A stretch of 64,000 nt of DNA, from assembly GCF_050320075.1 (NCBI RefSeq), contig NZ_CP190018.1. One strand, 5' to 3'. The position numbers and the translations under genes are program-made. The notes beneath the pieces are model-generated. The model was given only the letters and a program-made list of their open reading frames with translations, was not told the DNA's origin and made no database searches. Numbering within the stretch: position 1 is the first letter of the stretch; each line of letters opens with the position of its first letter. Source of the DNA: Escherichia coli. Its GTDB lineage: Bacteria > Pseudomonadota > Gammaproteobacteria > Enterobacterales > Enterobacteriaceae. This document shows positions 12,779-32,575 of this stretch, piece by piece.

Positions 12779-12856
12779 TGGCGAATTAATCAGCAGTCAG
12801 CAGCGCGGCACTTGCTAAGGAGAGCGTAAGGTTTATAATGCCTTACGCATCTCGAA

Positions 12857-12930
12857 GCGGGCGTAGTTCAATGGTAGAACGAGAGCTTCCCAAGCTCTAT
12901 ACGAGGGTTCGATTCCCTTCGCCCGCTCAA
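12857..12930 (+). tRNA. glyU: tRNA-Gly (anticodon CCC)
   Basis: GCGGGCGTAGTTCAATGGTAGAACGAGAGCTTCCCAAGCTCTATACGAGGGTTCGATTCCCTTCGCCCGCTC; acceptor stem pairs, anticodon loop CTTCCCAAG, T-loop GGTTCGATTCC; 3' end reads CAA rather than CCA. Confidence 0.9.
12913..12928. repeat. attL core: 16-bp direct repeat (tRNA-Gly 3' end)
   Basis: TTCCCTTCGCCCGCTC identical to 32061..32076. Confidence 0.7.
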
Positions 12931-13094
12931 AACAAACATTTCTCAACGTCTACTGAAGTCCATCAAATCCACGAATATCAAGCCTTTCAGCCATTTTCAT
13001 AGCTTATTAACGTCTACTCACAACTACCAGAATCTACACACAGAAGTGTATAGTAATGCGTATAGGACAAAATTTATTTTTTGGAGCTATACAC

Positions 13095-14309
13095 ATGCTG
13101 CTTTCAGACCTTGCTATCAGGCGCGCGAAGCCGAAAGAAAAGGCTTATACACTCAATGACGGTAACGGGCTTTCGTTACTCATTGAGCCGAACGGCTCGA
13201 AAGGGTGGCGACTACGTTACAGATTTGCAGGAAAGCCCAAAATGTTGTCGTTGGGCGTGTACCCTGATGTGTCTCTGTCTGATGCCAGAGCGGCAAGGGA
13301 TGAGGCTAAAAGGCTTCTTGCTGGTGGTATAAATCCAAGTGAGGCCAGAAAAGCTCAAAAGCGAGAACAGGCGAGCAAATTTGGCAATACTTTTGAGGGT
13401 ATCGCTCGCGAATGGTATGAAAAGCGGATCGACAGGTGGTCATCGTCATACGCCGAGGAAATGATCGAGACGTTTGAAAAAGACGTTTTTCCGTACATTG
13501 GCGGCAGGCCGATCGCAGAAATTAAGCCAATGGAGTTGCTTGCGGTTCTCTCCCGTCTTAATGACCGTGGGGCGACCGAAAAATTGCGTAAGGTTCGCCA
13601 GCGATGCGGCGAGGTGTTCCGGTACGCAATCATCACCGGACGCGCTGAATATAACCCCGCACCAGATCTGGCAAGCGCATTTGCTCCACACAAAAAAGAG
13701 CATTATGCCTATTTGAAGGCCGACGAACTGCCGGAATTTTTCCGCGTTCTTAATACGTACACCGGAAGCCAGATCGTCAAGCTGGGTATGCGATTATTGA
13801 TTCTGACAGGGCTCCGGCCAGGGGAATTACGACAGGCAGAATGGCAGGAGATCGATTTTGATAATCGTTTGTGGGAAGTGCCTAAAGAACGAATGAAGAT
13901 GCGCCGTCCTCATTGTGTGCCGCTTTCAGAACAGGCGATCGCTATTCTGGAACAGTTAAAACACATGACGGGGCAGTATCAGTTTATTTTCCCTGGTCGA
14001 ATCCAGCACAGTAAGCCGATGAGTGAAATGGCGATGAACGTGCTTATTCGTCGTATTGGCTATTCTGGGCGCGTTACTGGTCATGGGTTCCGGCACACGA
14101 TGAGCACGATTTTACATGAGCAGGGCTATAACACCGCGTGGATAGAAACGCAGCTTGCACACGTTGATAAGAACTCAATTCGTGGCACGTACAATCATGC
14201 GCAATATCTGGACGGGCGGCGCGAGATGCTCCAGTGGTACGCCGACTATATGGACTCACTGGAACAGGGCGGCAACGTGGTGCATGGCAAGTTCGGAAAA
14301 TGTGGATGA
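13095..14309 (+). CDS. tyrosine integrase, P4-type
   Basis: ORF 13056..14309; N-terminal LSDLAIRRAKPKEKAYTLNDGNGLSL and catalytic-domain HGFRHT ... Y residues typical of P4/CP4-57-like integrases. Confidence 0.85.
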   Translation: MLLSDLAIRRAKPKEKAYTLNDGNGLSLLIEPNGSKGWRLRYRFAGKPKMLSLGVYPDVSLSDARAARDEAKRLLAGGINPSEARKAQKREQASKFGNTFEGIAREWYEKRIDRWSSSYAEEMIETFEKDVFPYIGGRPIAEIKPMELLAVLSRLNDRGATEKLRKVRQRCGEVFRYAIITGRAEYNPAPDLASAFAPHKKEHYAYLKADELPEFFRVLNTYTGSQIVKLGMRLLILTGLRPGELRQAEWQEIDFDNRLWEVPKERMKMRRPHCVPLSEQAIAILEQLKHMTGQYQFIFPGRIQHSKPMSEMAMNVLIRRIGYSGRVTGHGFRHTMSTILHEQGYNTAWIETQLAHVDKNSIRGTYNHAQYLDGRREMLQWYADYMDSLEQGGNVVHGKFGKCG

Positions 14310-14431
14310 CTGGTTGAGTATACAGTAGTAGACTTTGAGCGACGAAAGAAAAAGCTGTGTCTAGGGTCGCTCCCGAAAAACCGTATACCTCGACGGGCTG
14401 GCACAGCCACTACAGTAGAGGACGCTGAGGT

Positions 14432-15235
14432 GTGCGTATGATTGATATTCATGCCGAATTAAACGAATACAAAAAAGATTTTATTTCTTTACGTGAATTT
14501 CTTGAGGTCGTGCTTAAGGTCGCTGGTGATGATTATGATGTTTCAGATCTCATAACTTGGATACTCAGGAGAATAAGCGGAGAACATATCCGCCTGTACA
14601 CAGTAAATGAATTTAAGCTGTTGGAATCTTTTTGTAACCCGTATCGGGATGAATTTGATTATGATGTTCTTTATAGAAATCTGGATGCGGTTCGGAAACA
14701 TGGTTGTTTACCTGGTGAGAGGGATGAAAATGGTTTTCTGGTGTCCGGTTATTGGGAAGATCCCGAATTTGAGAACATTGGATTTATAAGGGGTGAAATT
14801 TTCGCAATTTTTCCCGATGTCCTTGACGCGTTAACGAAGCTGGAAGGCGCTAACTCTTCTGAAAATGACGAGGTACAAGGACGCGATATTGAAAAGAAAG
14901 AGTTGCGTACAGAGGATGATTTATTATCCCAAATCGCAATGCTGGAAAGAGAAAACGCAGAGTTAAGGGCAAGGATAGAGCAGTTAGAGCAAGAGCGCCC
15001 GATACACTTATATAAATACTGGGATAAAGACCCATTAGCTAAGGCTATTGAGATTAGAAACAGAGAGTGGGCCAATTACGATCCAGAAAATGATTTTGCC
15101 ACCAGGGGAAATCAAGAAGCGATAACCAGGGAGCTTAAGCAGTGGGGGGCAAGTAATGCTCTTGCAACGCTCATAGAGAGGACTGCCTGCCCTATTAACC
15201 GAGACAACAGCCAAAAGAACGCAAAGCCGGATTAA
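14432..15235 (+). CDS. hypothetical protein (267 aa), acidic with coiled-coil segment
   Basis: Long ORF in AT-rich DNA between int and alpA; heptad-like LSQIAMLERENAELRARIEQLEQE; no family recognised. Confidence 0.5.
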   Translation: MRMIDIHAELNEYKKDFISLREFLEVVLKVAGDDYDVSDLITWILRRISGEHIRLYTVNEFKLLESFCNPYRDEFDYDVLYRNLDAVRKHGCLPGERDENGFLVSGYWEDPEFENIGFIRGEIFAIFPDVLDALTKLEGANSSENDEVQGRDIEKKELRTEDDLLSQIAMLERENAELRARIEQLEQERPIHLYKYWDKDPLAKAIEIRNREWANYDPENDFATRGNQEAITRELKQWGASNALATLIERTACPINRDNSQKNAKPD

Positions 15236-15248
15236 CGCACCATACCGC

Positions 15249-15399
15249 ATACCCTGAGGGTGATTTACTGTTACCCTGAGGGTATTTTTTTATCTTCCCC
15301 GTCAATTTTACCATCACCCTTAGGGTAGATTTCCTCCCGATTACCATCACCCTTAGGGTTAATTTCCTTCCGGTAACCATTAGGCCTGAGGGTATGAAA
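15249..15399. repeat. array of five palindromic ACCCT(G/T)AGGGT motifs (putative regulator binding sites)
   Basis: taccctgagggt x2, catcacccttagggt(a/t) x2 within a 33-bp direct repeat, ggcctgagggta; located just upstream of alpA. Confidence 0.6.
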
Positions 15400-15462
15400 A
15401 TATTCGTTATTTCTGTGCCATGATTACCTCGTCAAATTGAGTAGACGTTATGAGGTAAATAG

Positions 15463-15660
15463 ATGTCAAATACGCTTATTCGTTTAACAGAAGTTCAGCG
15501 TAGAACTGGATATAGCAAGGCATGGATTTATCGCCTTATGGGGCAAGGTAAATTTCCTGCATCAGTTAAAATTGGCTCGCGAGCGATTGCTTTCGTTGAA
15601 AGTGAAATTGACGAATGGATCAATCAGCGTATTGCCGAATCACGCGGAACGGCTGCCTGA
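15463..15660 (+). CDS. alpA: AlpA-family transcriptional regulator / excisionase-like (MerR-type HTH)
   Basis: 65 aa, LTEVQRRTGYSKAWIYRLMGQGKFP motif characteristic of AlpA/phage regulatory protein. Confidence 0.8.
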   Translation: MSNTLIRLTEVQRRTGYSKAWIYRLMGQGKFPASVKIGSRAIAFVESEIDEWINQRIAESRGTAA

Positions 15661-15735
15661 TTAAATAGCTACGGGTTATTGCCCAAGCTATCCACTAGCA
15701 AATAAAAAGTAACTTAATTCGATAGCGGAGTTTTT

Positions 15736-16560
15736 ATGAAACTGCGAAAAACGCCCGTACAGGGGCAGGGCTTTGTTCGGCCTGAAAACCAGAATCTGCA
15801 AAATTTCGGCGAAATTATCCCGGTTATTTCCGGCGTTATTGGCGGGCGTGAAGCCGCTGTTGTTAGCGCAAAAGCGTTACACAAAGCGTTGGGCGTGGGA
15901 AAAGACTTCTCTACATGGATCACTGATCGTATCTCTGAATATGACTTCACCATTGGGTACGATTACTCAGTCCATAAAACAATTTCCCCAAATTTGGGGA
16001 AAAGCCCGAATGGCGAGGCTTACAGCAAGATTAAGCACTCTGGCAGACCCGGTAAAGACTATCTGTTAAGTGTCGGAATGGCGAAAGAACTGGCAATGAT
16101 CGAACGCACCGAACAGGGCCGCGCCGTTCGTCAGTACTTCATCAAATGCGAGGAGGAGCTACACAAAGTAGCGCCAGTGCGTTCCGCAGCGTTACGCCGT
16201 GAACTGAAAGCCCGTATCACCGTTGCCAGCTACTTTAAGCCGATGTGTGCCGCGCTGGAGGCGTACCGCGCTGAACTGGGTAAAAACACGCTCCAGCACC
16301 ACTACACCACGGAAGCCAATATGCTGGCGCGTATCGTGCTGGGTGGCATGACTGCAAAACAGTGGGCGCAGGCGAACGGCATCACAGGCGAACCACGCGA
16401 CCACATGAGCACGCTGCAGCTTGAGCACCTTTCTTACCTTGAGCAGAGCAATATCACGCTGATTGAGTTAGGCCAGGACTACCACCAGCGGAAAGCTGAA
16501 TTAATTCGTCTTTCGCAACGCTGGTTAGCCCGCCGCATGGAGGTGAGCAGCCATGCGTAA
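15736..16560 (+). CDS. phage antirepressor-like protein (KilA-C-like domain), tentative
   Basis: 274 aa; position after alpA and adjacency to a Bro-N gene; domain call is from memory of motif content only. Confidence 0.45.
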   Translation: MKLRKTPVQGQGFVRPENQNLQNFGEIIPVISGVIGGREAAVVSAKALHKALGVGKDFSTWITDRISEYDFTIGYDYSVHKTISPNLGKSPNGEAYSKIKHSGRPGKDYLLSVGMAKELAMIERTEQGRAVRQYFIKCEEELHKVAPVRSAALRRELKARITVASYFKPMCAALEAYRAELGKNTLQHHYTTEANMLARIVLGGMTAKQWAQANGITGEPRDHMSTLQLEHLSYLEQSNITLIELGQDYHQRKAELIRLSQRWLARRMEVSSHA

Positions 16561-17110
16561 ACCTGTCTTTTATGCCGGGCGCACTGAAATCTCTGTCATT
16601 AAATTCGATGACATTCAGGTGCGCATAGTGAGTATCAACGGCGAGCCGTGGTTTGTTGGCGCTGATGTGTGTGCTGCGCTGGAAATCAGCAATGTTACTG
16701 ATGCTGTTTCAGTTCTGGATAACGACGAGGTAATGACCCTAGCTTTAACCGAGGGGCATTCCGGTAAGCGTGGTGGTGCCAGAAGCTGGAATGTTGTCTC
16801 TGAATCAGGTTTCTACAAACTGATCGCCCGCAGCCGTAAAGCTTCCACACCTGGCACATTTGCGCACCGTTTCAGTAACTGGGTATTCCGCGAGGTTATT
16901 CCTTCAATCCGCAAAACGGGGAGTTATGGTGTTCCGTTTGCCATGCTGAATGATTTCAGTAAACGCCAGGCTGCATATCAACAGGAAGCCAGCAAACGCG
17001 GTTACAGGTTACAGCAATGCAAAGAGGCAAAAGATGCACTGGAACGAGAAGAGCGGGCGCTATGGCGTAAATATCAGCCTGATTTTCTGGAGGGTGAAAG
17101 CAATGTGTAA
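16553..17110 (+). CDS. Bro-N domain protein (prophage antirepressor family), tentative
   Basis: 185 aa; N-terminal FxFxxxxVRxxxxxGEPWFV pattern typical of Bro-N; start overlaps previous stop. Confidence 0.5.
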   Translation: MRKPVFYAGRTEISVIKFDDIQVRIVSINGEPWFVGADVCAALEISNVTDAVSVLDNDEVMTLALTEGHSGKRGGARSWNVVSESGFYKLIARSRKASTPGTFAHRFSNWVFREVIPSIRKTGSYGVPFAMLNDFSKRQAAYQQEASKRGYRLQQCKEAKDALEREERALWRKYQPDFLEGESNV

Positions 17111-17278
17111 CGATCCGAACGTTACAGAAAGAAAAAGCGCCCCGTTGCTGGATAACAGGCAAAACAAAGGCGACCGGGATAGGTCGCCAGTGGGAACAAA
17201 GGAAATCAAACGCATCGCCAACAATGCCAGATTTGCGGCTGGTGGGCAATGTGATCAGTGTGCTGGCTTGCTGGTGGG

Positions 17279-17476
17279 CTATTCCTGCTCTTTAGCATCG
17301 CCATACTGCGATGTTTTCCAGGTATGCGATCCCATTTTTGTGCGCCTGTACTCTTTTAAGAACTTCTCAAGGACAAACGCACATGGTGCAAATCTTTCCT
17401 GTTCTTGTTCGCTTACCGCATTTTTGCGTTGTTTTTTCCTGGATGAGGATAATTTCTTTAATGATTTGTCAGTCAT
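17279..17476 (-). CDS. small basic protein, diverged paralogue of the adjacent 65-aa gene
   Basis: 65 aa; shares C-terminal ...AKEQE and upstream nucleotide similarity with 17534..17731. Confidence 0.3.
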   Translation of the reverse strand: MTDKSLKKLSSSRKKQRKNAVSEQEQERFAPCAFVLEKFLKEYRRTKMGSHTWKTSQYGDAKEQE

Positions 17477-17533
17477 CGTAGATACCTGTAACCCTGTGCG
17501 CCACAGTTCACCGCACCACGGCGCTGGTGATGG

Positions 17534-17731
17534 TTACTCCTGCTCTTTGGCCTTCCGGCGCTGTTCATATTTTAATTTGCGTCCACAGGCATCTAAGACC
17601 CATGCGGAAAAATTAGCACTAGGATTAGTTAATTTTTCTTGTTCAACACTGGCATCAATCCCATCTATAAGCTCGTGCGGGAATCGAATATTTTTCTTTG
17701 CTGATTTGTTGTTTGTGTTTCCGCTAGACAT
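17534..17731 (-). CDS. small DNA-binding-like protein (YlcI/YnfO-like, tentative)
   Basis: 65 aa; IRFPHELIDGIDA ... NFSAWVLDAC resembles small prophage regulators as I recall them; divergent from the rightward operon. Confidence 0.45.
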   Translation of the reverse strand: MSSGNTNNKSAKKNIRFPHELIDGIDASVEQEKLTNPSANFSAWVLDACGRKLKYEQRRKAKEQE

Positions 17732-17757
17732 TGGTACACCTCACTTAAATGGATTTG

Positions 17758-17841
17758 ATGGGCGCACACAATACAGCAAAAAAAGTGAGAAGTTAAGTAT
17801 TGACATGTGCGCACACATGATTTTAATCTGTGCGCACAGTT
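17758..17841. promoter_or_regulatory. three (T)GTGCGCACA palindromes overlapping a TTGACA -35 box (operator/promoter region)
   Basis: ggcgcacaca (17761), TTGACAtgtgcgcacacatg (17801), ctgtgcgcacag (17828). Confidence 0.5.
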
Positions 17842-18132
17842 TGGGTTGCATTGCTCAAATTAAGCAACGCCCCGCAGTGCTCGCAACACATGCAGGGCGT
17901 CTAACCACCAACGATAGAAAGCGTATCGAGGTAGCTATGTTAAATCATACCACACACCCGCAAGGGCGGGACTCGCACAACCTGAATAAATACATCTGGC
18001 GTTTTATCGCCCTGAGCACCGCACAACCACGCGTAATACACATCGAGGCCGCCAGCGAACAGGAAGCCCGTCAGCAATCCCCGGCTGGCTGCGTGATGGT
18101 ATTTACTGCCCGCATCCGTCAGGGGGAATACT

Positions 18133-18390
18133 ATGCGTGATGAACGATTTATTCTTCTGGAGCAAAAATTCAGTGAAGCGCCAAAAAATGAAATTGATGC
18201 TCTTTTGCATATCGCGAATATGCTAAAAGTAGCAACGTTCCTTATAGTTTCGAATCTGGAGCATGAAACGGCGTTAGATATACTGAACAGTGCTGTCGAT
18301 TATTCTGAATATATTGCCGAGGATAAATACAGGCAATTACCAGATTTGTTAGCCCATAAATATAAAGAAGAACCTCACACCGGGAAATAA
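18133..18390 (+). CDS. hypothetical protein (85 aa)
   Basis: ORF in operon context upstream of the replication protein. Confidence 0.4.
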   Translation: MRDERFILLEQKFSEAPKNEIDALLHIANMLKVATFLIVSNLEHETALDILNSAVDYSEYIAEDKYRQLPDLLAHKYKEEPHTGK

Positions 18391-18392
18391 AC

Positions 18393-18695
18393 ATGAAGAA
18401 GATTAAATTTACTGGCTTAAATGCCAGCGGACAGACTCACCCGAAAATCAGGATCGGGGATATTTTCCGGGATAAATATGGTGACAGCGTGGTTATTAAT
18501 TCCGTGTATGAACGGCACATTACATACCGCCGCGCAGGGTACGACTATGACTGTGTGATGCCCGTTCATCAGTTCCGGCGTGATTTTTCACTGGTATGTG
18601 CAGTACCACGCAGTAAGCCCACCAGTAAAGAGAAAGCACGGGCAAATATTCAGGTAATAAAGAACATGATTAACGCATTCAGGGGCAAGAAATGA
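18393..18695 (+). CDS. hypothetical protein (100 aa)
   Basis: ORF tightly spaced, its stop overlaps the next start. Confidence 0.4.
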   Translation: MKKIKFTGLNASGQTHPKIRIGDIFRDKYGDSVVINSVYERHITYRRAGYDYDCVMPVHQFRRDFSLVCAVPRSKPTSKEKARANIQVIKNMINAFRGKK

Positions 18696-27645: not shown

Positions 27646-30401
27646 TGAAACAGGCATGTGTTGAAGCTATTGCGCAGACACTTGGTCGCCAGCCAAAGGC
27701 TGATGAGCTGAAAAATATCGAAGATCGTATCAAAGAAGCAGTGCAACATGTGCACAGAAAGAATGCAAAAGAAGGCAAAAGTGGTATTCCTGATGCTCAA
27801 ACATACATGGATGCTGCAGAACTGGTACGCCAGCGTGTGGTTCATGATGTGTACAAGAAAAGACAGCGTGTTGCCCAGAATGCGATCGCCATCAGTAAAA
27901 TTACTGACACTCTCGATGCTAACATCCCGCCTGATCAGCAGACACCTGTTAATTTGCAGCAGTTTATTTTTGCTGGCCGACGATCGAGAGACAAAGCTGA
28001 TATCTCCGTTGCTTCTGCTGAAGAGCTTGCAATTGGGGCATATCAGGACTGGTCCCGTCAGCTCAGTGCTGAACTTCTAAAAGCAGGTGATGACGTCCGC
28101 AAATTCTTCGAGCAGAGCAGGGCGCTTGGAGAGCAGCGGTTTCGGAGTGTATTCGACAGGCAGGCGGCAAAGTCTGCACAACTCCAGATCCTGAAAGAAA
28201 TTTATGGCGAAGATACCGGGAATCCCCTGGCGAAGAAAATTGCACAGATTTGGAAGGATGTAACAGGCCGTGTTCGTCATGAGATGAACGACAACGGCTT
28301 TGACATAGGCCTGCGAGAAGACTGGCATACGCCATATGTGGATGATGCTGACCTTATTCGCAATGCCGGGCGCGAAGAATGGCTGGCATCGTTACCAGTG
28401 GCAGAGCAAGCTACAGCACGTCTTTCAGGTCGCCAGCCACCGATTGAGTTTGCCCGCCAGAAATGGGTTGATGACGCTTACAACACGCAGGATCGCAGCA
28501 ATTACGTTAATCCTGACGGCAGCATTATGAATGACGTCGAGTACCGTCAGGCACTGGAAGCGATCTTTGAAACGAAGGCCACTGATGGGGCAAACAAAAT
28601 TGAGCCCGGTACATTTATGGGAGCCGGAGGAATAAAGAGCCGTGGTTCTCAGCACAGGGGGATGGCGTTCAAGGATGCGCAGTCACACTTCGCCTATATG
28701 GAGCGATACACTCAGCAGCCGCTGGTGGGGGTGATGATGTCGCACCTGCAATCATCATCCAGGGATTTGGGCGTCGTTAAAGCCTTTGGTCCGGACGCCG
28801 AAAGAAACTTTTCCCTGGTACTGGATCGCATCTATAAGCGCGCAGTAACAGGCGGGAAACGCAAAAAAGAAATGGAGGATGAGGCCAAATTAGTAGCCCG
28901 TATGTTCAACTCAATGGCTGGCCTAAATGGTGTCGCTTCATCGAGTGTGTTCTCTTCAGCTGTTGGTGGTCTGCGTAACCTGATGACCAGCGCCATGCTT
29001 GGCACCAGCGTACTGACAGCAACCAGCGACCAGGCAATTATGCGGGCAAATGCGCAGGCGCTGGGCTTTACCCGTGGTGGAATGCGGCTTTCCGTTAACA
29101 CTATCAAAAACCTGTTTAGTGGAGATGCCAAAAAGGCGAATGCTGAACTCGGTCTGCTGGTGGATTCACATGCTGCTGTGGTTTCGAAAATGGGCGGGTT
29201 TGACTTGTCTCGCGGCATAACTGGCTGGTTCGCAGAGAAGACACTGAAGTGGTCCGGGCTGATCGCTATGGACCGCGCAAACAAAGCGTCGTTTGGTCTC
29301 CTGATGTACAAAAACATTGGCGAGCTGACCAGAAAATTTAAGACGCTGGACGATATGAAAGGAACCGATAAAACCATTCTGGCTAACAAGGGATGGAGCA
29401 ATGAGGACTGGGCCATCATGGCAGCGGCAGAACTCAGGCCGATGACTACTGCCGGGCATATGGGGATGACGCCAGACGCGATTTACGCTGTGCCCGATAA
29501 CGTAATCGCCGACATTATGGCAGACCGTATTACCCGGATTCGTGCCGGGAGTGAAAAGGCACTGGCAGCACTTGGAGATCTCCCTCCAGAACGCCTGAAA
29601 CGGATGAAAGAAGCATTCGACGCTGAGGCTGAGCAGACCATCACGCGCATGATTCGTAATGCACGCGCTGAAGCAGCCCATAAATTGCTGGGAATTACGC
29701 ACGGTGAGATGACCAATGCTGTGACCACCGCTACGGGTATTGATACATATGCCCGTGATGATGCTGGCGAGTTAATGAAGAGCTTCATGCTCTTCAAAAC
29801 AACCCCATTTGCTGGATTTCGGCAACTTGTTAACAGAACACGGGATTTGGACACCGTTCCGGCCATTAAATTTCTGGCCTCATATATCGGGGGAACAACT
29901 CTTGCTGGTATGTTTGCGATCCAGATGAACAGTTTGTTAAATGGTAATGATCCGCTGGATATGACAAAACCAACCACATGGGTTCAGGCTTTACTGAAAG
30001 GTGGTTCGTTCGGTATCTACGGTGATTTTATTTTCCAGGACCATACGCAATATGGCTCCAGCATCGGTGCCACTATGGGTGGCCCTGTGTTGAGCTTTGC
30101 AGAGCAGTTAACAAAATTACTGATTACTAACCCACAGAAGGCTCTACAGGGTGAAGAAACATCATTCGGTGCCGATGCACTGAAAACAGCCCGCATGATC
30201 ACCCCATTCGCAAACCTGTGGTATGCGAAAGCGATAACCAATCACCTGATATTGCAACAACTTCAGGAGATGGCAAACCCTGGTTACAATGATCGAGTAA
30301 GGGACCGCGCGCAACGGGAGTTCGACATAACGAGTTGGTGGGAACCGGGTGCTATTGCGCCACGTAGAGCACCGGATTTTGGAAAGGCGGTGGGGAACTG
30401 A
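27645..30401 (+). CDS. large hypothetical protein (about 918 aa)
   Basis: ATG at 27645 overlaps previous stop (TAATG); ORF track 27624..30401. Confidence 0.65.
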   Translation: MKQACVEAIAQTLGRQPKADELKNIEDRIKEAVQHVHRKNAKEGKSGIPDAQTYMDAAELVRQRVVHDVYKKRQRVAQNAIAISKITDTLDANIPPDQQTPVNLQQFIFAGRRSRDKADISVASAEELAIGAYQDWSRQLSAELLKAGDDVRKFFEQSRALGEQRFRSVFDRQAAKSAQLQILKEIYGEDTGNPLAKKIAQIWKDVTGRVRHEMNDNGFDIGLREDWHTPYVDDADLIRNAGREEWLASLPVAEQATARLSGRQPPIEFARQKWVDDAYNTQDRSNYVNPDGSIMNDVEYRQALEAIFETKATDGANKIEPGTFMGAGGIKSRGSQHRGMAFKDAQSHFAYMERYTQQPLVGVMMSHLQSSSRDLGVVKAFGPDAERNFSLVLDRIYKRAVTGGKRKKEMEDEAKLVARMFNSMAGLNGVASSSVFSSAVGGLRNLMTSAMLGTSVLTATSDQAIMRANAQALGFTRGGMRLSVNTIKNLFSGDAKKANAELGLLVDSHAAVVSKMGGFDLSRGITGWFAEKTLKWSGLIAMDRANKASFGLLMYKNIGELTRKFKTLDDMKGTDKTILANKGWSNEDWAIMAAAELRPMTTAGHMGMTPDAIYAVPDNVIADIMADRITRIRAGSEKALAALGDLPPERLKRMKEAFDAEAEQTITRMIRNARAEAAHKLLGITHGEMTNAVTTATGIDTYARDDAGELMKSFMLFKTTPFAGFRQLVNRTRDLDTVPAIKFLASYIGGTTLAGMFAIQMNSLLNGNDPLDMTKPTTWVQALLKGGSFGIYGDFIFQDHTQYGSSIGATMGGPVLSFAEQLTKLLITNPQKALQGEETSFGADALKTARMITPFANLWYAKAITNHLILQQLQEMANPGYNDRVRDRAQREFDITSWWEPGAIAPRRAPDFGKAVGN

Positions 30402-30715
30402 TGACGAGAGATAAAATTGAATATATTGCTTCTCTTAAATATGAAGCTGAGAAATGGAGAAGGATTGGCTGGTGGGGAACATTAATATCACTCTCTGCTT
30501 TACTTATAGACTCCTGGTTCAGACATATTGATGCAGCATCATTACTTTTTGAATCAGCAGTACTTGGTGGATTCATTTGCTGTTGGGGTGGTAATTATGA
30601 TCGGGCGTCCAAACATAAGAGAGAACTTGACGCGATATGTTTTGCTTTATTCGGTAAGGATTACGAAAGTTCTGACCTTGATATAATTGAATTCAACAAA
30701 ACGGAACTATCGTGA
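30401..30715 (+). CDS. small membrane protein (104 aa)
   Basis: Start overlaps previous stop (TGATG); two hydrophobic helices (WWGTLISLSALLI, AVLGGFICCWGG). Confidence 0.5.
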   Translation: MTRDKIEYIASLKYEAEKWRRIGWWGTLISLSALLIDSWFRHIDAASLLFESAVLGGFICCWGGNYDRASKHKRELDAICFALFGKDYESSDLDIIEFNKTELS

Positions 30716-30723
30716 CATGTCAC

Positions 30724-30749
30724 AGGCCGCTTTCGCGGCCTTGTTTTTA
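30724..30749 (+). terminator. intrinsic terminator ending the cargo operon
   Basis: AGGCCGCTTTCGCGGCCT followed by TGTTTTTA. Confidence 0.6.
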
Positions 30750-31417
30750 ACGAATGCCACCGCCGCCCGGGCGGGAATTCGCAGATAAAAAAGCACGCTG
30801 CACGGTTTTATTAATACTTATACCATTAGGATTGATCCTTCAATGGACAATCCTTCCATCGTGTGGCCAGCCATTCATATTCTTTGTCTTTTCTTCAGTA
30901 TCGGCTTTGCATCTTCTACACCCTGAAAGATGTCGTTTTATGGTGTATCTGATGATTTATTCCCTAACAATAGATATTCGAAAAATTAATCAGTTAAAAC
31001 AATTATTTGGATAATTTCAGGTAAAACTATCTTAATCTTCTGGTGGATCTCAATGCGTAGTGACGGTATCGGGATTAAGGGCGTGGATATTCGCGATATA
31101 TGCCGCTACACCCCTCAACAGTAATAGATATGAGCTTTTCACGCTCTCCTTTCACTGCTGAGAACGGCAACAACGTGCCACAGGAACGCGCTGTAATCGA
31201 TTCTGACGCACTTAATTGCGTTGGGTAATGGTTTTTGCCAGCCTGTGGGGGTAACTCTGTTTTATGAGGCTTTGGCTATAGTGCAAAAATACACTTTGTC
31301 TTGCCTCTCAATTTGATGAGACTGGAACGACAACAGGACAGACCACCAGCAACAGTTACCGTATTCAGCCGTTCTGTGGCACCAGTGGAACTATCAACCC
31401 CTGCTTTCAGAAATGTG

Positions 31418-31573
31418 TTTGCGGGTTATTTTGGGGCGTTTGCGGGTTATTTGGGATGTTTTGCGGGTTATGTGATGCTTGAATAATGAACAGTGTATTT
31501 TGCAACATATTGATACTAAAGAACAAAAAATAGTTAGAATACTAAGATAACCCGGTAACCCGCATAACCCGCA
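31418..31573. repeat. iteron cluster 2: three GTTTGCGGGTTAT and three TAACCCG(C/G)A copies flanking an AT-rich spacer
   Basis: gtttgcgggttatt x2, ttttgcgggttatg, then ataacccggtaacccgcataacccgca; same motif as cluster 1. Confidence 0.6.
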
Positions 31574-31978
31574 CTGTTTTGTATATATATACGAAAAATT
31601 GCATTCAGGAGGGGGGGAGCGAAATCCCTACAATCCATTGCTTATGGGACCGCCCGCCTCGTCAAATTTTTACACCCGCGAAATAAAAAAATACTTCACG
31701 CTGGTGGGCATGATGCTGATATGGGAGGCTTCCATAACGCCACCATTCGGAACTATGCAAATCTGCATAGAAAAGGGGATGCCTGATACAATACCCTCGC
31801 CCGATAAAATCACACCGATAAACTCATCTGCCACGAGTAGAAAGAGCGAACGAACCCGATACGCAGTAATGCTTGTCGGGTACAGCTTTTTAAGGCGGCT
31901 GTAGATATCAGGCCATCCGTGATCATCCACCAGCGAGATAGCCGATAACGATGACGCATAACCCTCAAGCGAGGGATA

Positions 31979-32003
31979 AATGTGTATAGAAATGTGTATA
32001 GAA
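31979..32003. repeat. tandem ATGTGTATAGAA repeats (candidate integrase arm-type sites)
   Basis: aatgtgtatagaa-atgtgtatagaa about 58 bp from attR; related gtgtatag / ctatacaca motifs near int at 13040-13092. Confidence 0.35.
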
Positions 32004-32060
32004 TTGATTTTAGAACTCGCAGGATTCGCGCTATTACTGGCCTTGTGTGATGTTGTATTG

Positions 32061-32076
32061 TTCCCTTCGCCCGCTC
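32061..32076. repeat. attR core: 16-bp direct repeat of the tRNA-Gly 3' end, followed by CA (intact CCA context)
   Basis: TTCCCTTCGCCCGCTC identical to 12913..12928. Confidence 0.7.
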
Positions 32077-32575
32077 CAGAATCTCCCCAGGTGGAGAAGA
32101 CTAAAAAAGTCTTCTCTGTCAGCAACTTAAACAGTTACCTATTTAATTTGCTTAGGAGTTCTACCATTGTGATCCGCCCTTAGTAACTGTCACGTTAAGT
32201 TACACGGTGAGATGACAGTATAACCTAACGTTGGCGGCAGTTGCACCTCTCACACCGCGATAGCACAACGTGAAGATAAAGCCCATCCTGGCATTGTAAT
32301 GTCATCGACAGACTGAACACACGCATTTAAGCCCGATGTGCGGCCTTGTGGCTGCGTAAACAGGTTTATGGTGATATTGGTCCTTGCAAACCATATGCAA
32401 GCTCTATCAGCGTTTCAGCCACGCTCCCAACGGGTACACGGTTATCCTGATAAGGTGTGATCTTTCTGACAATCTGATGAAGTCGCTACGCTCCCGCTTG
32501 TTGCTGTATCACCAACGGGGCTTTATGGTTTCTATTGTCTATAATAATCTCACAATTCCCCTGCATGAGGTTGAT

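What the first reader, a model, noticed from the sequence alone, without database searches (positions are those of the whole stretch)
15249..15399. Array of five palindromic ACCCT(G/T)AGGGT sites upstream of alpA
Five 10-12 bp palindromes, two of them embedded in a 33-bp direct repeat, fill the gap between the 267-aa gene and alpA. Palindromes at helical-repeat spacing suggest cooperative binding by a dimeric regulator (AlpA itself, an integrase arm-binding domain, or a helper-phage regulator). This is probably the induction or excision control switch of the element.
Basis: seen in the sequence. Interest (0 to 1): 0.5.

Follow-up and report, generated by a model that had tools for sequence, protein, structure and literature searches.

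The report
Operator array controlling a satellite's alpA
Four perfect and one weak copy of an 11-bp palindrome sit at fixed, helically phased positions upstream of alpA, the master-switch gene of a phage-satellite island in E. coli, and comparison with relatives suggests they are docking sites for the uncharacterised protein encoded just upstream, not for AlpA or the integrase.

Summary
There are four perfect ACCCT(G/T)AGGGT sites at 15251, 15273, 15316 and 15349, and one degenerate site at 15383. About 0.02 perfect sites are expected by chance in the 64-kb window. Spacings are 22, 43, 33 and 34 bp, close to multiples of 11.

The array lies in a 19-kb PICI-like satellite integrated at tRNA-Gly, between a 265/267-aa gene ("ORF-X") and alpA.

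Comparison with over 100 related loci shows that the palindromes do not track AlpA. Identical AlpA proteins occur with and without them. They do not track integrase or AntA either. They track the C-terminal ~75-residue domain of ORF-X. All 22 distinct loci with that domain carry the sites, and none of 42 loci with other ORF-X types do.

Distant homologues keep the 5-1-5 dyad at the same distances from the alpA start codon but with changed half-sites (ACTAT, ACTGT, ACCCA). Every other ORF-X class has its own repeated motif.

Best reading: a swappable regulator-plus-operator cassette controls the alpA promoter. DNA binding by ORF-X is inferred, because its fold matches nothing known. Whether it represses or activates is unresolved. 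No paper found describes it.

The parts
12857..12928 (+). tRNA-Gly(CCC), the integration site. Its last 16 nt (12913-12928, TTCCCTTCGCCCGCTC) form the left att repeat.
   Evidence: ARAGORN, Rfam tRNA, direct repeat D5.
32061..32076 (+). Right att repeat, identical to the 16-bp left repeat. It sets the island length at about 19.1 kb.
   Evidence: the repeat finder D5, 100% identity.
13095..14309 (+). Tyrosine integrase, P4-type with an arm-binding N-terminal domain.
   Evidence: ORF list. RefSeq annotation of the identical strain SCU-105. Pfam Arm-DNA-bind_3, Phage_int_M and Phage_integrase hits on homologues.
14354..14421 (+). Match to Rfam int-alpA RNA (RF02996). It ends 17 nt before the ORF-X ATG.
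   Evidence: cmscan 46.9 bits against a gathering score of 35.8. The motif sits in the same place upstream of ORF-X in 10 related loci of 5 ORF-X classes.
14438..15235 (+). ORF-X. It is 265 aa from the ATG at 14438, or 267 aa from the GTG at 14432. It is an uncharacterised protein and the proposed regulator. It has a variable N-terminal alpha/beta domain, a disordered linker, a long helix and a conserved C-terminal domain.
   Evidence: ORF list. No match in Pfam, NCBIfam, PADLOC or PHROGs. AlphaFold model.
14912..14995 (+). Predicted long helix or coiled coil of ORF-X (residues 161-188 of the 267-aa numbering). It is the proposed dimerisation element.
   Evidence: AF2 secondary structure. Only weak coiled-coil and bZIP-type Pfam hits, E 0.01-0.06.
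14987..15217 (+). Conserved C-terminal four-helix domain of ORF-X (residues ~186-262). It is the part that co-varies with the palindromes and is the proposed DNA-binding domain.
   Evidence: Alignments. 171 cluster representatives carry the domain, always at the C-terminus. AF2 pLDDT 88.9. 22 of 22 loci with the domain have sites and 0 of 42 without it do.
15251..15261 (.). Site 1, ACCCTGAGGGT, perfect.
15273..15283 (.). Site 2, ACCCTGAGGGT, perfect. It extends to a 13-bp palindrome, TACCCTGAGGGTA, and is followed by T7, which makes it look like a weak terminator.
15316..15326 (.). Site 3, ACCCTTAGGGT, perfect. It lies in the first 33-bp repeat unit (15308-15340).
15349..15359 (.). Site 4, ACCCTTAGGGT, perfect. 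It lies in the second 33-bp repeat unit (15341-15373). Its centre is 109 nt from the alpA ATG, the most conserved site position in the family.
15383..15393 (.). Site 5, GGCCTGAGGGT, a degenerate promoter-proximal copy. Its centre is 75 nt from the ATG. Both the degeneracy and the position are conserved.
15396..15401 (+). Candidate -10 hexamer P1, GAAAAT (GATAAT or TAAAAT in relatives). With this promoter, site 5 falls in the -35/-10 spacer.
   Evidence: Reading of the alignment. The strict consensus scan found no promoter. This is an inference.
15416..15424 (+). Candidate extended -10 P2, TGcCATGAT. The TGn + NAnnAT pattern lies 46-47 nt before the ATG in 22 of 63 distinct loci, and TGnTTTAAT lies at the same place in distant low-GC relatives. 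With this promoter, site centres fall near -43, -77, -110, -153 and -175.
   Evidence: This is an inference; the transcription start is not mapped.
15425..15457 (+). Conserved inverted repeat, TACCTCGT-N17-ATGAGGTA, which would be a 5'-UTR hairpin. It overlaps the alpA Shine-Dalgarno sequence. It belongs to the alpA module and is present in all ORF-X classes.
   Evidence: RNA fold. Alignments.
15463..15660 (+). alpA, 65 aa, Phage_AlpA/HTH_17 family. It is the regulated gene.
   Evidence: ORF list. PHROG 'excisionase and transcriptional regulator'. Pfam hits on homologues.

Best explanation
The five sites are the operator array of a swappable regulatory cassette that controls the alpA promoter of a PICI-like phage satellite.

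Proposed mechanism:
1. ORF-X, encoded immediately upstream, dimerises through its long helix.
2. Its conserved C-terminal four-helix domain reads the 5-bp half-sites ACCCT/AGGGT, which are separated by one free base.
3. Dimers bound on one face of the DNA at multiples of ~11 bp cooperate.
4. Occupancy of the weak promoter-proximal site sets alpA transcription. That site overlaps the -35 region or the spacer of the alpA promoter.
5. alpA transcription in turn sets induction of the island: excision, replication and transfer.
6. The variable N-terminal part of ORF-X, or control of ORF-X synthesis through the int-alpA RNA leader, would couple the switch to the helper phage.

What is shown: the sites, their phasing and fixed geometry, and their exclusive co-variation with the ORF-X C-terminal domain.

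What is inferred: that ORF-X binds them, that it dimerises, where the promoter lies, and the link to the helper phage.

The sign is unresolved. I put a repressor (Stl- or CI-like) and an activator (a class II-like position at about -43) at roughly equal odds.
For: 1. The array is far beyond chance.

2. Phylogenetic footprint. In L019 the spacers have diverged, AlpA is 72% identical and Int 58%. Three perfect ACCCTNAGGGT sites and the 22-bp pair spacing are still kept, and the central base varies freely.

3. Geometry. Across about 30 distinct class-A loci, spacings cluster at 21-23, 29-36 (mostly 32-34), 42-44 and 55-56 bp. Site centres sit at about 75, 108, 151, 174 and 206 nt from the alpA ATG. 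Length variants of the region differ mostly by about 22 or 33 bp.

4. Exclusive association. All 22 distinct IMG/VR loci whose ORF-X carries the ...(V/T)ACPI(K/N)R domain have sites, and 21 of them have two or more. None of 42 loci with other ORF-X types has any site, even allowing one mismatch.

5. The N-terminal domain can be replaced without changing the sites. P0028 and P0030 are 35% and 32% identical overall, yet the sites are the same. The specificity therefore maps to the C-terminal part.

6. AlpA, Int and AntA do not co-vary with the sites.

7. Distant homologues (domain about 40-50% identical) are all directly upstream of an alpA-type gene. They keep 5-1-5 dyads at about 148 and 106 nt from the ATG but with altered half-sites: ACTAT-N-ATAGT, the symmetric double change ACTGT-C-ACAGT, and ACCCA-T-AGGGT.

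8. Each other ORF-X class has its own repeated motif in the same place. This is the pattern seen in phage immunity regions.

9. The C-terminal domain folds confidently (pLDDT 88.9). It is always C-terminal to diverse N-termini in 171 cluster representatives.

10. Known biology. alpA is required for induction of Gram-negative PICIs. Its promoter is switched on by helper phages through an unknown route (PMC6092414, PMC11773190).

Against: 2. ORF-X's C-terminus is physically adjacent to the sites. Part of the association could therefore be linkage within one recombination block.

3. The transcription start is unmapped, and the strict sigma-70 scan found no promoter.

4. Some PICIs work without any ORF-X. 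In EcCICFT073 alpA is the second ORF. EcCIMP1 has only a 427-bp gap. Helper induction of alpA therefore does not need such a protein in general.

5. In one subgroup the promoter-proximal element reads CCCTCA-N4-TGAGGG, a different half-site spacing.
Confidence: 0.6

Rival explanations
1. The sites bind a transcription factor from the helper phage or the host. Each cassette type would answer to a different helper. ORF-X would be an unrelated accessory gene that travels with the promoter region.
For: Helper phages induce alpA promoters in PICIs that lack ORF-X, and on plasmids without other island genes (PMC6092414). In EcCIMP1 the reporter is still induced in an alpA deletion. ORF-X has no recognisable DNA-binding fold.
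Against: No homologue of ORF-X exists in 50,697 phage genomes. A scan of 2.9 million viral contigs for paired sites found them only in this island family, apart from 4 unrelated high-GC or tandem-repeat loci. The site type follows the ORF-X C-terminal domain across hosts from enterics to low-GC taxa, while half-sites change with that domain. It is hard to see why a helper factor would co-vary with the C-terminal half of a neighbouring gene but not with its N-terminal half.
Confidence: 0.17
2. The sites are AlpA's own autoregulatory operator.
For: AlpA activates its own promoter in EcCICFT073 and probably in EcCIMP1. AlpA-family proteins bind promoter DNA. The P. aeruginosa AlpA element lies between -35 and -10.
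Against: Identical AlpA proteins (100% identity) occur with class-A arrays, with class-B motifs and with other motifs. The window's AlpA is 95% identical to that of L003, which has no ACCCT site. Loci with AlpA 72-82% identical keep the array.
Confidence: 0.03
3. The sites are integrase arm-type or excisionase sites that build the excision complex.
For: The integrase has an arm-binding domain, and AlpA relatives can act as excisionases.
Against: The sites are about 2.3 kb from attL. There are none near either att repeat and none elsewhere in the window. There is no co-variation with Int. The sites are palindromic, unlike typical arm sites. Their position is fixed relative to the alpA ATG, not to att.
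Confidence: 0.02
4. The palindromes act in RNA or as terminators. They would form hairpins that stop read-through from int and ORF-X into alpA.
For: Sites 1 and 2 score as weak terminator-like hairpins, and site 2 is followed by T7. The region folds better than shuffles, z -3.6. Symmetric double changes would also preserve a hairpin.
Against: A 5-bp stem around a 1-nt loop cannot form as such. The T-run is not conserved (L002 and L019). The half-site sequence is conserved, not just complementarity. The ~11-bp phasing and the fixed distance to the promoter have no RNA rationale. The low fold energy comes from palindromic repeats pairing with each other.
Confidence: 0.05
5. Another island-encoded protein binds the sites, for example a Bro-N/AntA, PerC, YlcI/YnfO or Icd-like protein.
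For: Bro-N network proteins are often DNA-binding regulators in satellites (PMC10111431).
Against: AntA is about 81-82% identical in class A, B and C islands. Downstream gene content differs among loci that share the sites. Only ORF-X and alpA are constant neighbours.
Confidence: 0.08

Closest known systems
SaPI Stl master repressor and its operators (Gram-positive PICIs)
   Same: It is an island-encoded regulator next to int. It binds several dyad-symmetric sites in the adjacent intergenic region and gates the island's lytic operon. Its sensor parts are variable and recognise different helper proteins. It is exchanged as a module.
   Different: Stl is divergently transcribed, has a classical N-terminal HTH, and is proven to bind DNA and helper proteins. 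ORF-X is co-directional with int and alpA and has an unclassified C-terminal domain. Nothing about it has been tested, and it might be an activator. Gram-negative PICIs are reported to lack a known repressor (PMC6092414).
Immunity regions of lambdoid and P2-like phages (repressor gene plus OR/OL operators; heteroimmunity)
   Same: A regulator gene and its repeated dyad operators co-vary as one mosaic block while flanking genes stay the same. There are multiple phased sites of graded strength, with the weakest next to the promoter.
   Different: Here the cassette sits in a satellite and controls a single small activator/excisionase gene. There is no divergent promoter pair and no Cro-like partner.
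P4 late promoter PLL upstream of vis (the alpA homologue), activated by P2 Ogr or P4 delta and modulated by Vis
   Same: The gene order is the same: int, then promoter, then vis/alpA, then eta/antA-like, then the primase. The promoter lacks a good -35. Relatives of this island carry P4-type C4/CI RNA and isrK.
   Different: From my own knowledge, the Ogr/delta site is a single TGT-N12-ACA dyad near -55. Here there is an array of 3-6 sites of 5-1-5 dyads with a cognate upstream ORF. The window island has no detectable C4 RNA.
PalpA of EcCICFT073 and EcCIMP1 (characterised Gram-negative PICIs)
   Same: The regulated gene and its role are the same: alpA is needed for induction, and the promoter is induced by the helper (PMC6092414, PMC11773190).
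   Different: Those islands have no ORF-X in the int-alpA slot. No operator has been defined for them. EcCIMP1's 427-bp region has unrelated palindromes.
Rfam int-alpA RNA motif (RF02996)
   Same: It occupies the same int-alpA interval of the same island family and is present in this window at 14354-14421.
   Different: It is a different element. It lies upstream of ORF-X, about 830 bp from the palindromes. It is an RNA-structure candidate, not a DNA site array.
P. aeruginosa AlpA binding element (GGGACG-N5-GGTA between -35 and -10)
   Same: It is a promoter-embedded site linked to an AlpA-named regulator.
   Different: It is a single, non-palindromic element, and AlpA itself is the binder (PMC7969949). 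In this island, AlpA specificity is excluded by the comparison with relatives.

Membership tests
Repressor/activator-operator (immunity-like) cassette of a mobile element | Several copies of one dyad-symmetric site, more than chance would give. | tested here: met
   Four perfect sites and one degenerate site against 0.02 expected. Relatives have 3-6 copies.
Repressor/activator-operator (immunity-like) cassette of a mobile element | Sites positioned at or overlapping the regulated promoter, with conserved geometry. | tested here: inconclusive
   Distances to the alpA ATG are fixed across divergent loci. The proximal site falls at about -43 with promoter candidate P2, or in the spacer with P1. 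The start site is not mapped, and the strict promoter scan was negative.
Repressor/activator-operator (immunity-like) cassette of a mobile element | An adjacent regulator gene whose DNA-binding part co-varies with the site sequence. | tested here: met
   22 of 22 against 0 of 42. Half-site changes occur in distant domain subgroups. Other ORF-X classes have their own motifs.
Repressor/activator-operator (immunity-like) cassette of a mobile element | The regulator has a recognisable DNA-binding fold. | tested here: not met
Repressor/activator-operator (immunity-like) cassette of a mobile element | Direct protein-DNA binding and a regulatory effect. | not testable with these tools
   Needs EMSA or footprinting, and reporter assays.
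AlpA autoregulatory operator | Site type follows the AlpA allele or its recognition helix. | tested here: not met
   Identical AlpA proteins occur with three different upstream site classes. Divergent AlpA proteins occur with the same sites.
Integrase arm-type sites | Located in the att arms and following the integrase N-terminal domain. | tested here: not met
   The sites are about 2.3 kb from attL, with none at attL or attR. There is no co-variation with Int.
Intrinsic terminator | A stable GC-rich hairpin followed by a U-run, conserved in relatives. | tested here: not met
   Only sites 1 and 2 score weakly. The stem is 4-5 bp. The T-run is absent in L002 and L019.
Gram-negative PICI / P4-like satellite (the host element) | Integrase, alpA and primase in one orientation, about 10-20 kb, flanked by att repeats at a tRNA, with no phage structural or lysis genes. 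| tested here: met
   Annotation of the identical strain. 16-bp att repeats 19.1 kb apart. The DUF927 primase is at 18692-20818.
Gram-negative PICI / P4-like satellite (the host element) | Induction and packaging by a helper phage. | not testable with these tools
   Shown only for relatives of the wider family, EcCIMP1 and EcCICFT073 (literature).

The most novel reading that the evidence does not exclude
ORF-X proteins may be the missing master regulators and helper sensors of Gram-negative PICI-like satellites. They would be a large family built from interchangeable N-terminal sensor domains, a dimerising helix and a previously unrecognised DNA-binding fold. Each would travel with its own operator array as a 'heteroimmunity' cassette inserted between the int-alpA RNA leader and alpA. 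If so, satellites diversify their induction specificity the way temperate phages diversify immunity.
Probability: 0.4. Interest if true: 0.8.

Novelty: new variant of a known kind. Interest (0 to 1): 0.62.

Why it matters
How helper phages switch on Gram-negative PICIs is an open question. alpA is known to be the switch, but no repressor, operator or phage inducer has been defined (PMC6092414, PMC11773190).

This locus offers a concrete, testable cis-element and a candidate trans-factor:
- a defined 11-bp site;
- a defined 75-residue domain;
- natural cassette swaps that predict specificity.

If confirmed, it would add a new DNA-binding domain family. It would explain the hypervariable int-alpA slot seen across Enterobacterales and Pasteurellaceae-like hosts. 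It would also give orthogonal regulator-operator pairs for engineering satellite-based vectors.

Tried and rejected

2. Family libraries. Pfam, NCBIfam, PADLOC and PHROGs gave no family for ORF-X of classes A, B or C.

It said nothing about enterobacteria.

5. A literature search for the motif string returned only irrelevant eukaryotic or viral hits. Searches for a PICI repressor, operator or inducer found no description.

6. I tried to locate EcCICFT073 in CFT073 by guessing coordinates and landed on a lambdoid prophage instead. I did not pursue it.

7. The strict sigma-70 promoter scan found no promoter. The promoter assignments rest on my reading of alignments.

8. The RNA-structure reading was considered and rejected as the main explanation.

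Full report
**1. Observation**

The region 15249-15399 contains four perfect copies of the 11-bp palindrome ACCCT(G/T)AGGGT, at 15251, 15273, 15316 and 15349. A degenerate fifth copy, GGCCTGAGGGT, starts at 15383.

A zero-mismatch search finds only these four in the 64-kb window. Shuffles give a mean of 0.02, and 0 of 100 shuffles reach four.

Sites 3 and 4 lie in a 33-bp tandem repeat. Spacings are 22, 43, 33 and 34 bp.

**2. Context**

The window is E. coli chromosome (xdhA, actS/ygeR). It is 100% identical over the 1.5-kb query region to strain SCU-105.

tRNA-Gly(CCC) lies at 12857-12928. Its last 16 nt are repeated at 32061-32076. This delimits a 19.1-kb island. All of the following genes are on the + strand:
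- integrase (13095-14309);
- a hypothetical gene, here called ORF-X (14438-15235);
- the palindrome array;
- alpA (15463-15660);
- antA, a Bro-N gene, an Icd-like gene and a DUF4222 gene;
- a DUF927 primase;
- SSB, ProQ/FinO and PerC genes;
- four large unknown ORFs.

This is the layout of Gram-negative PICI / P4-like satellites.

In such islands alpA is the activator required for induction. Its promoter is positively autoregulated and is switched on by helper phages through an unidentified factor. No repressor is known (PMC6092414; PMC11773190).

**3. The sites do not belong to AlpA, Int or AntA**

- L003, a related island at tRNA-Thr, has an AlpA 95% identical to the window's, with an identical helix-turn-helix. 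Its upstream region is unrelated and has no ACCCT site.
- L004 has AlpA 77% identical and carries two copies of ACCGCAATTGCGGT instead.
- Among 80 AlpA loci from IMG/VR, pairs and triples with 100% identical AlpA carry class-A arrays, class-B motifs or other motifs.
- Conversely, L019 has AlpA 72% and Int 58% identical and keeps the array.
- Int is about 66% identical and AntA about 81% identical to the window's in islands of classes A, B and C alike.
- No site lies near either att end.

**4. The sites track the C-terminal domain of ORF-X**

ORF-X has few close homologues: 31 proteins.

Homologues only 32-41% identical overall have a different N-terminal domain. They keep the last ~85 residues (ERPILL..DPL..AIEIRNREWANYDPEND.ATRGNQ.AI..EL..G......IE.VACPIKR) and they keep the array.

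In the IMG/VR sample, all 22 distinct loci with this domain have at least one site within one mismatch. Of these, 21 have two or more. None of 42 loci with other ORF-X types has any (after correcting my regular expression for the window's TACPINR ending).

A scan of 2.9 million viral contigs for paired sites returned 25 loci. Of these, 21 belong to this island family and all carry the domain. The other four are unrelated high-GC or tandem-repeat sequences.

**5. Footprint and geometry**

Spacers diverge while sites persist. The central base is free (G, C, T or A).

Spacings across loci cluster at 21-23, 29-36 (mostly 32-34), 42-44 and 55-56 bp. Site centres sit at about 75, 108, 151, 174 and 206 nt from the alpA ATG. 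Natural length variants differ mostly by about 22 or 33 bp.

The promoter-proximal copy is degenerate in nearly all members, and that degeneracy is itself conserved.

**6. Distant relatives**

A profile of the domain finds 171 cluster representatives. The domain is always at the C-terminus, on proteins of 57-515 aa with varied N-termini.

All nine distant members that I located sit directly upstream of a small gene. Five of these genes are annotated Phage_AlpA. The other three (L116, L241, L242) have no Pfam hit, so for them alpA identity is inferred from position and size.

Their intergenic regions keep the 5-1-5 dyad with changed half-sites:
- ACCCATAGGGT and ACCCTATGGGT, three copies at 21-bp spacing (L119);
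- ACTAT-N-ATAGT at 148 and 106 nt from the ATG (L116, L241, L242);
- a symmetric double change to ACTGT-C-ACAGT in L242;
- ACTAT-N-ATAGT in L243 and L244.

The general form is AC..T-N-A..GT. Conservation of the dyad architecture and of the distances, together with half-site turnover in step with domain divergence, is the signature of a co-evolving protein-site pair.

**7. The slot as a whole**

The int-alpA slot is hypervariable. Every ORF-X class has its own repeated motif upstream of alpA:
- class B: GGTGGGCRC / GYGCCCACC;
- class C: ACCGCAATTGCGGT, two copies;
- class D: TTGCATGCAA;
- class E/H: five or six direct A(C/T)TTCCAAA repeats;
- class G: inverted GGAGTTATCA;
- others: AACCGGTT, and ACCGGAA-N19-TTCCGGT.

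This is how phage immunity regions look.

**8. What ORF-X is**

ORF-X matches no Pfam, NCBIfam, PADLOC or PHROG family. No homologue exists in 50,697 phage genomes.

AlphaFold gives an alpha/beta N-domain (1-140), a disordered linker, a long helix (161-188) and a helical C-domain. Modelled alone with 46 sequences, the C-domain is a confident four-helix unit with pLDDT 88.9.

Fold searches give nothing informative. DNA binding is therefore inferred from co-variation, not from fold.

**9. Promoter and sign**

The strict scan finds no sigma-70 promoter. I see two candidates.

- P1 is GAAAAT at 15396-15401. It would put site 5 in the spacer.
- P2 is an extended -10, TGcCATGAT, at 15416-15424. The pattern recurs 46-47 nt from the ATG in 22 of 63 distinct loci. 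It appears as TGnTTTAAT at the same place in the distant low-GC group. P2 would put site centres near -43, -77, -110, -153 and -175.

Overlap with the core promoter suits a repressor. A site at -43 on a promoter without a -35 also suits a class II-type activator. I cannot decide between them.

**10. Comparison and novelty**

In function this most resembles SaPI Stl with its operators, or a phage immunity region. In position it resembles P4's PLL region upstream of vis.

It is not the Rfam int-alpA RNA. That motif matches 14354-14421, just upstream of ORF-X.

No paper in the searchable library describes ORF-X or these sites.

I rate it a new variant of a known kind: an operator array with a cognate regulator, where the regulator family, the site and the role in Gram-negative satellites are undescribed.

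**11. Verdict**

A control switch for alpA bound by a dimeric regulator is plausible. AlpA and Int are excluded as binders. ORF-X is the leading candidate, with confidence 0.6. A helper or host factor is the main rival.
- Interest is 0.62.

Noticed in passing
window 14354-14421 (+); also L002, L004, L005, L006, L019, L063, L066, L068, L087, L117: The Rfam 'int-alpA RNA' motif (RF02996) matches immediately upstream of the variable ORF-X, ending 17 nt before its ATG. It does not lie next to alpA. This holds in at least five ORF-X classes, so the motif looks like a conserved leader of whatever gene occupies the slot.
   Followed up: partly
L006 5561-5648, L009 (EcCIMP1) 1100-1327, L019 4857-5084, L068, L072, L079, L117; window 12800-32200: Relatives carry P4-type immunity RNAs downstream of alpA/antA: C4 antisense RNA, isrK and c4-a1b1 targets. 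The island in the window has none detectable at E <= 0.1.
   Followed up: partly
window 15425-15457: A conserved inverted repeat overlaps the alpA Shine-Dalgarno sequence. It reads TACCTCGT-N17-ATGAGGTA here and CTCGTAA-N13-TTACGAG in most relatives. It is present in all ORF-X classes. It could be a translational control hairpin or an AlpA-module DNA site.
   Followed up: partly
window 23054-30715: Four co-directional cargo ORFs of 843, 686, 918 and 104 aa sit at the distal end of the island. They have no PADLOC hit. They may be an undescribed accessory or defence system.
   Followed up: partly
window 31417-31458: A 21-bp tandem direct repeat (GTTTGCGGGTTATTTTGGGGC and an 81% identical copy) lies about 600 bp inside the right att repeat. 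It could be an integrase arm-site or a replication or packaging element.
   Followed up: no
L040/L031 (5 perfect sites), L039, L051/L026 (3 sites) compared with window 15308-15373: The array is polymorphic in copy number among near-identical E. coli islands. It gains or loses whole 33-bp or 22-bp units, which keeps the helical phase.
   Followed up: yes
L120-L199 (genome-contig scan): Paired ACCCTNAGGGT sites are a genome-wide dispersed or tandem repeat in several Chloroflexi/Anaerolineae MAGs, a Bacteroidia MAG and rumen MAG RUG12190. These are unrelated to the enterobacterial island.
   Followed up: no
L009 3358-3784 (EcCIMP1 int-alpA gap, minus strand): The experimentally helper-inducible alpA promoter region of EcCIMP1 has no large ORF-X. 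It carries its own palindromes: CTTTGTC-GCT-GACAAAG, TCACGC-N6-GCGTGA, and a 15-bp-arm inverted repeat AAAGACCGCAATATG-N5-CATATTGTGGTCTTT.
   Followed up: no
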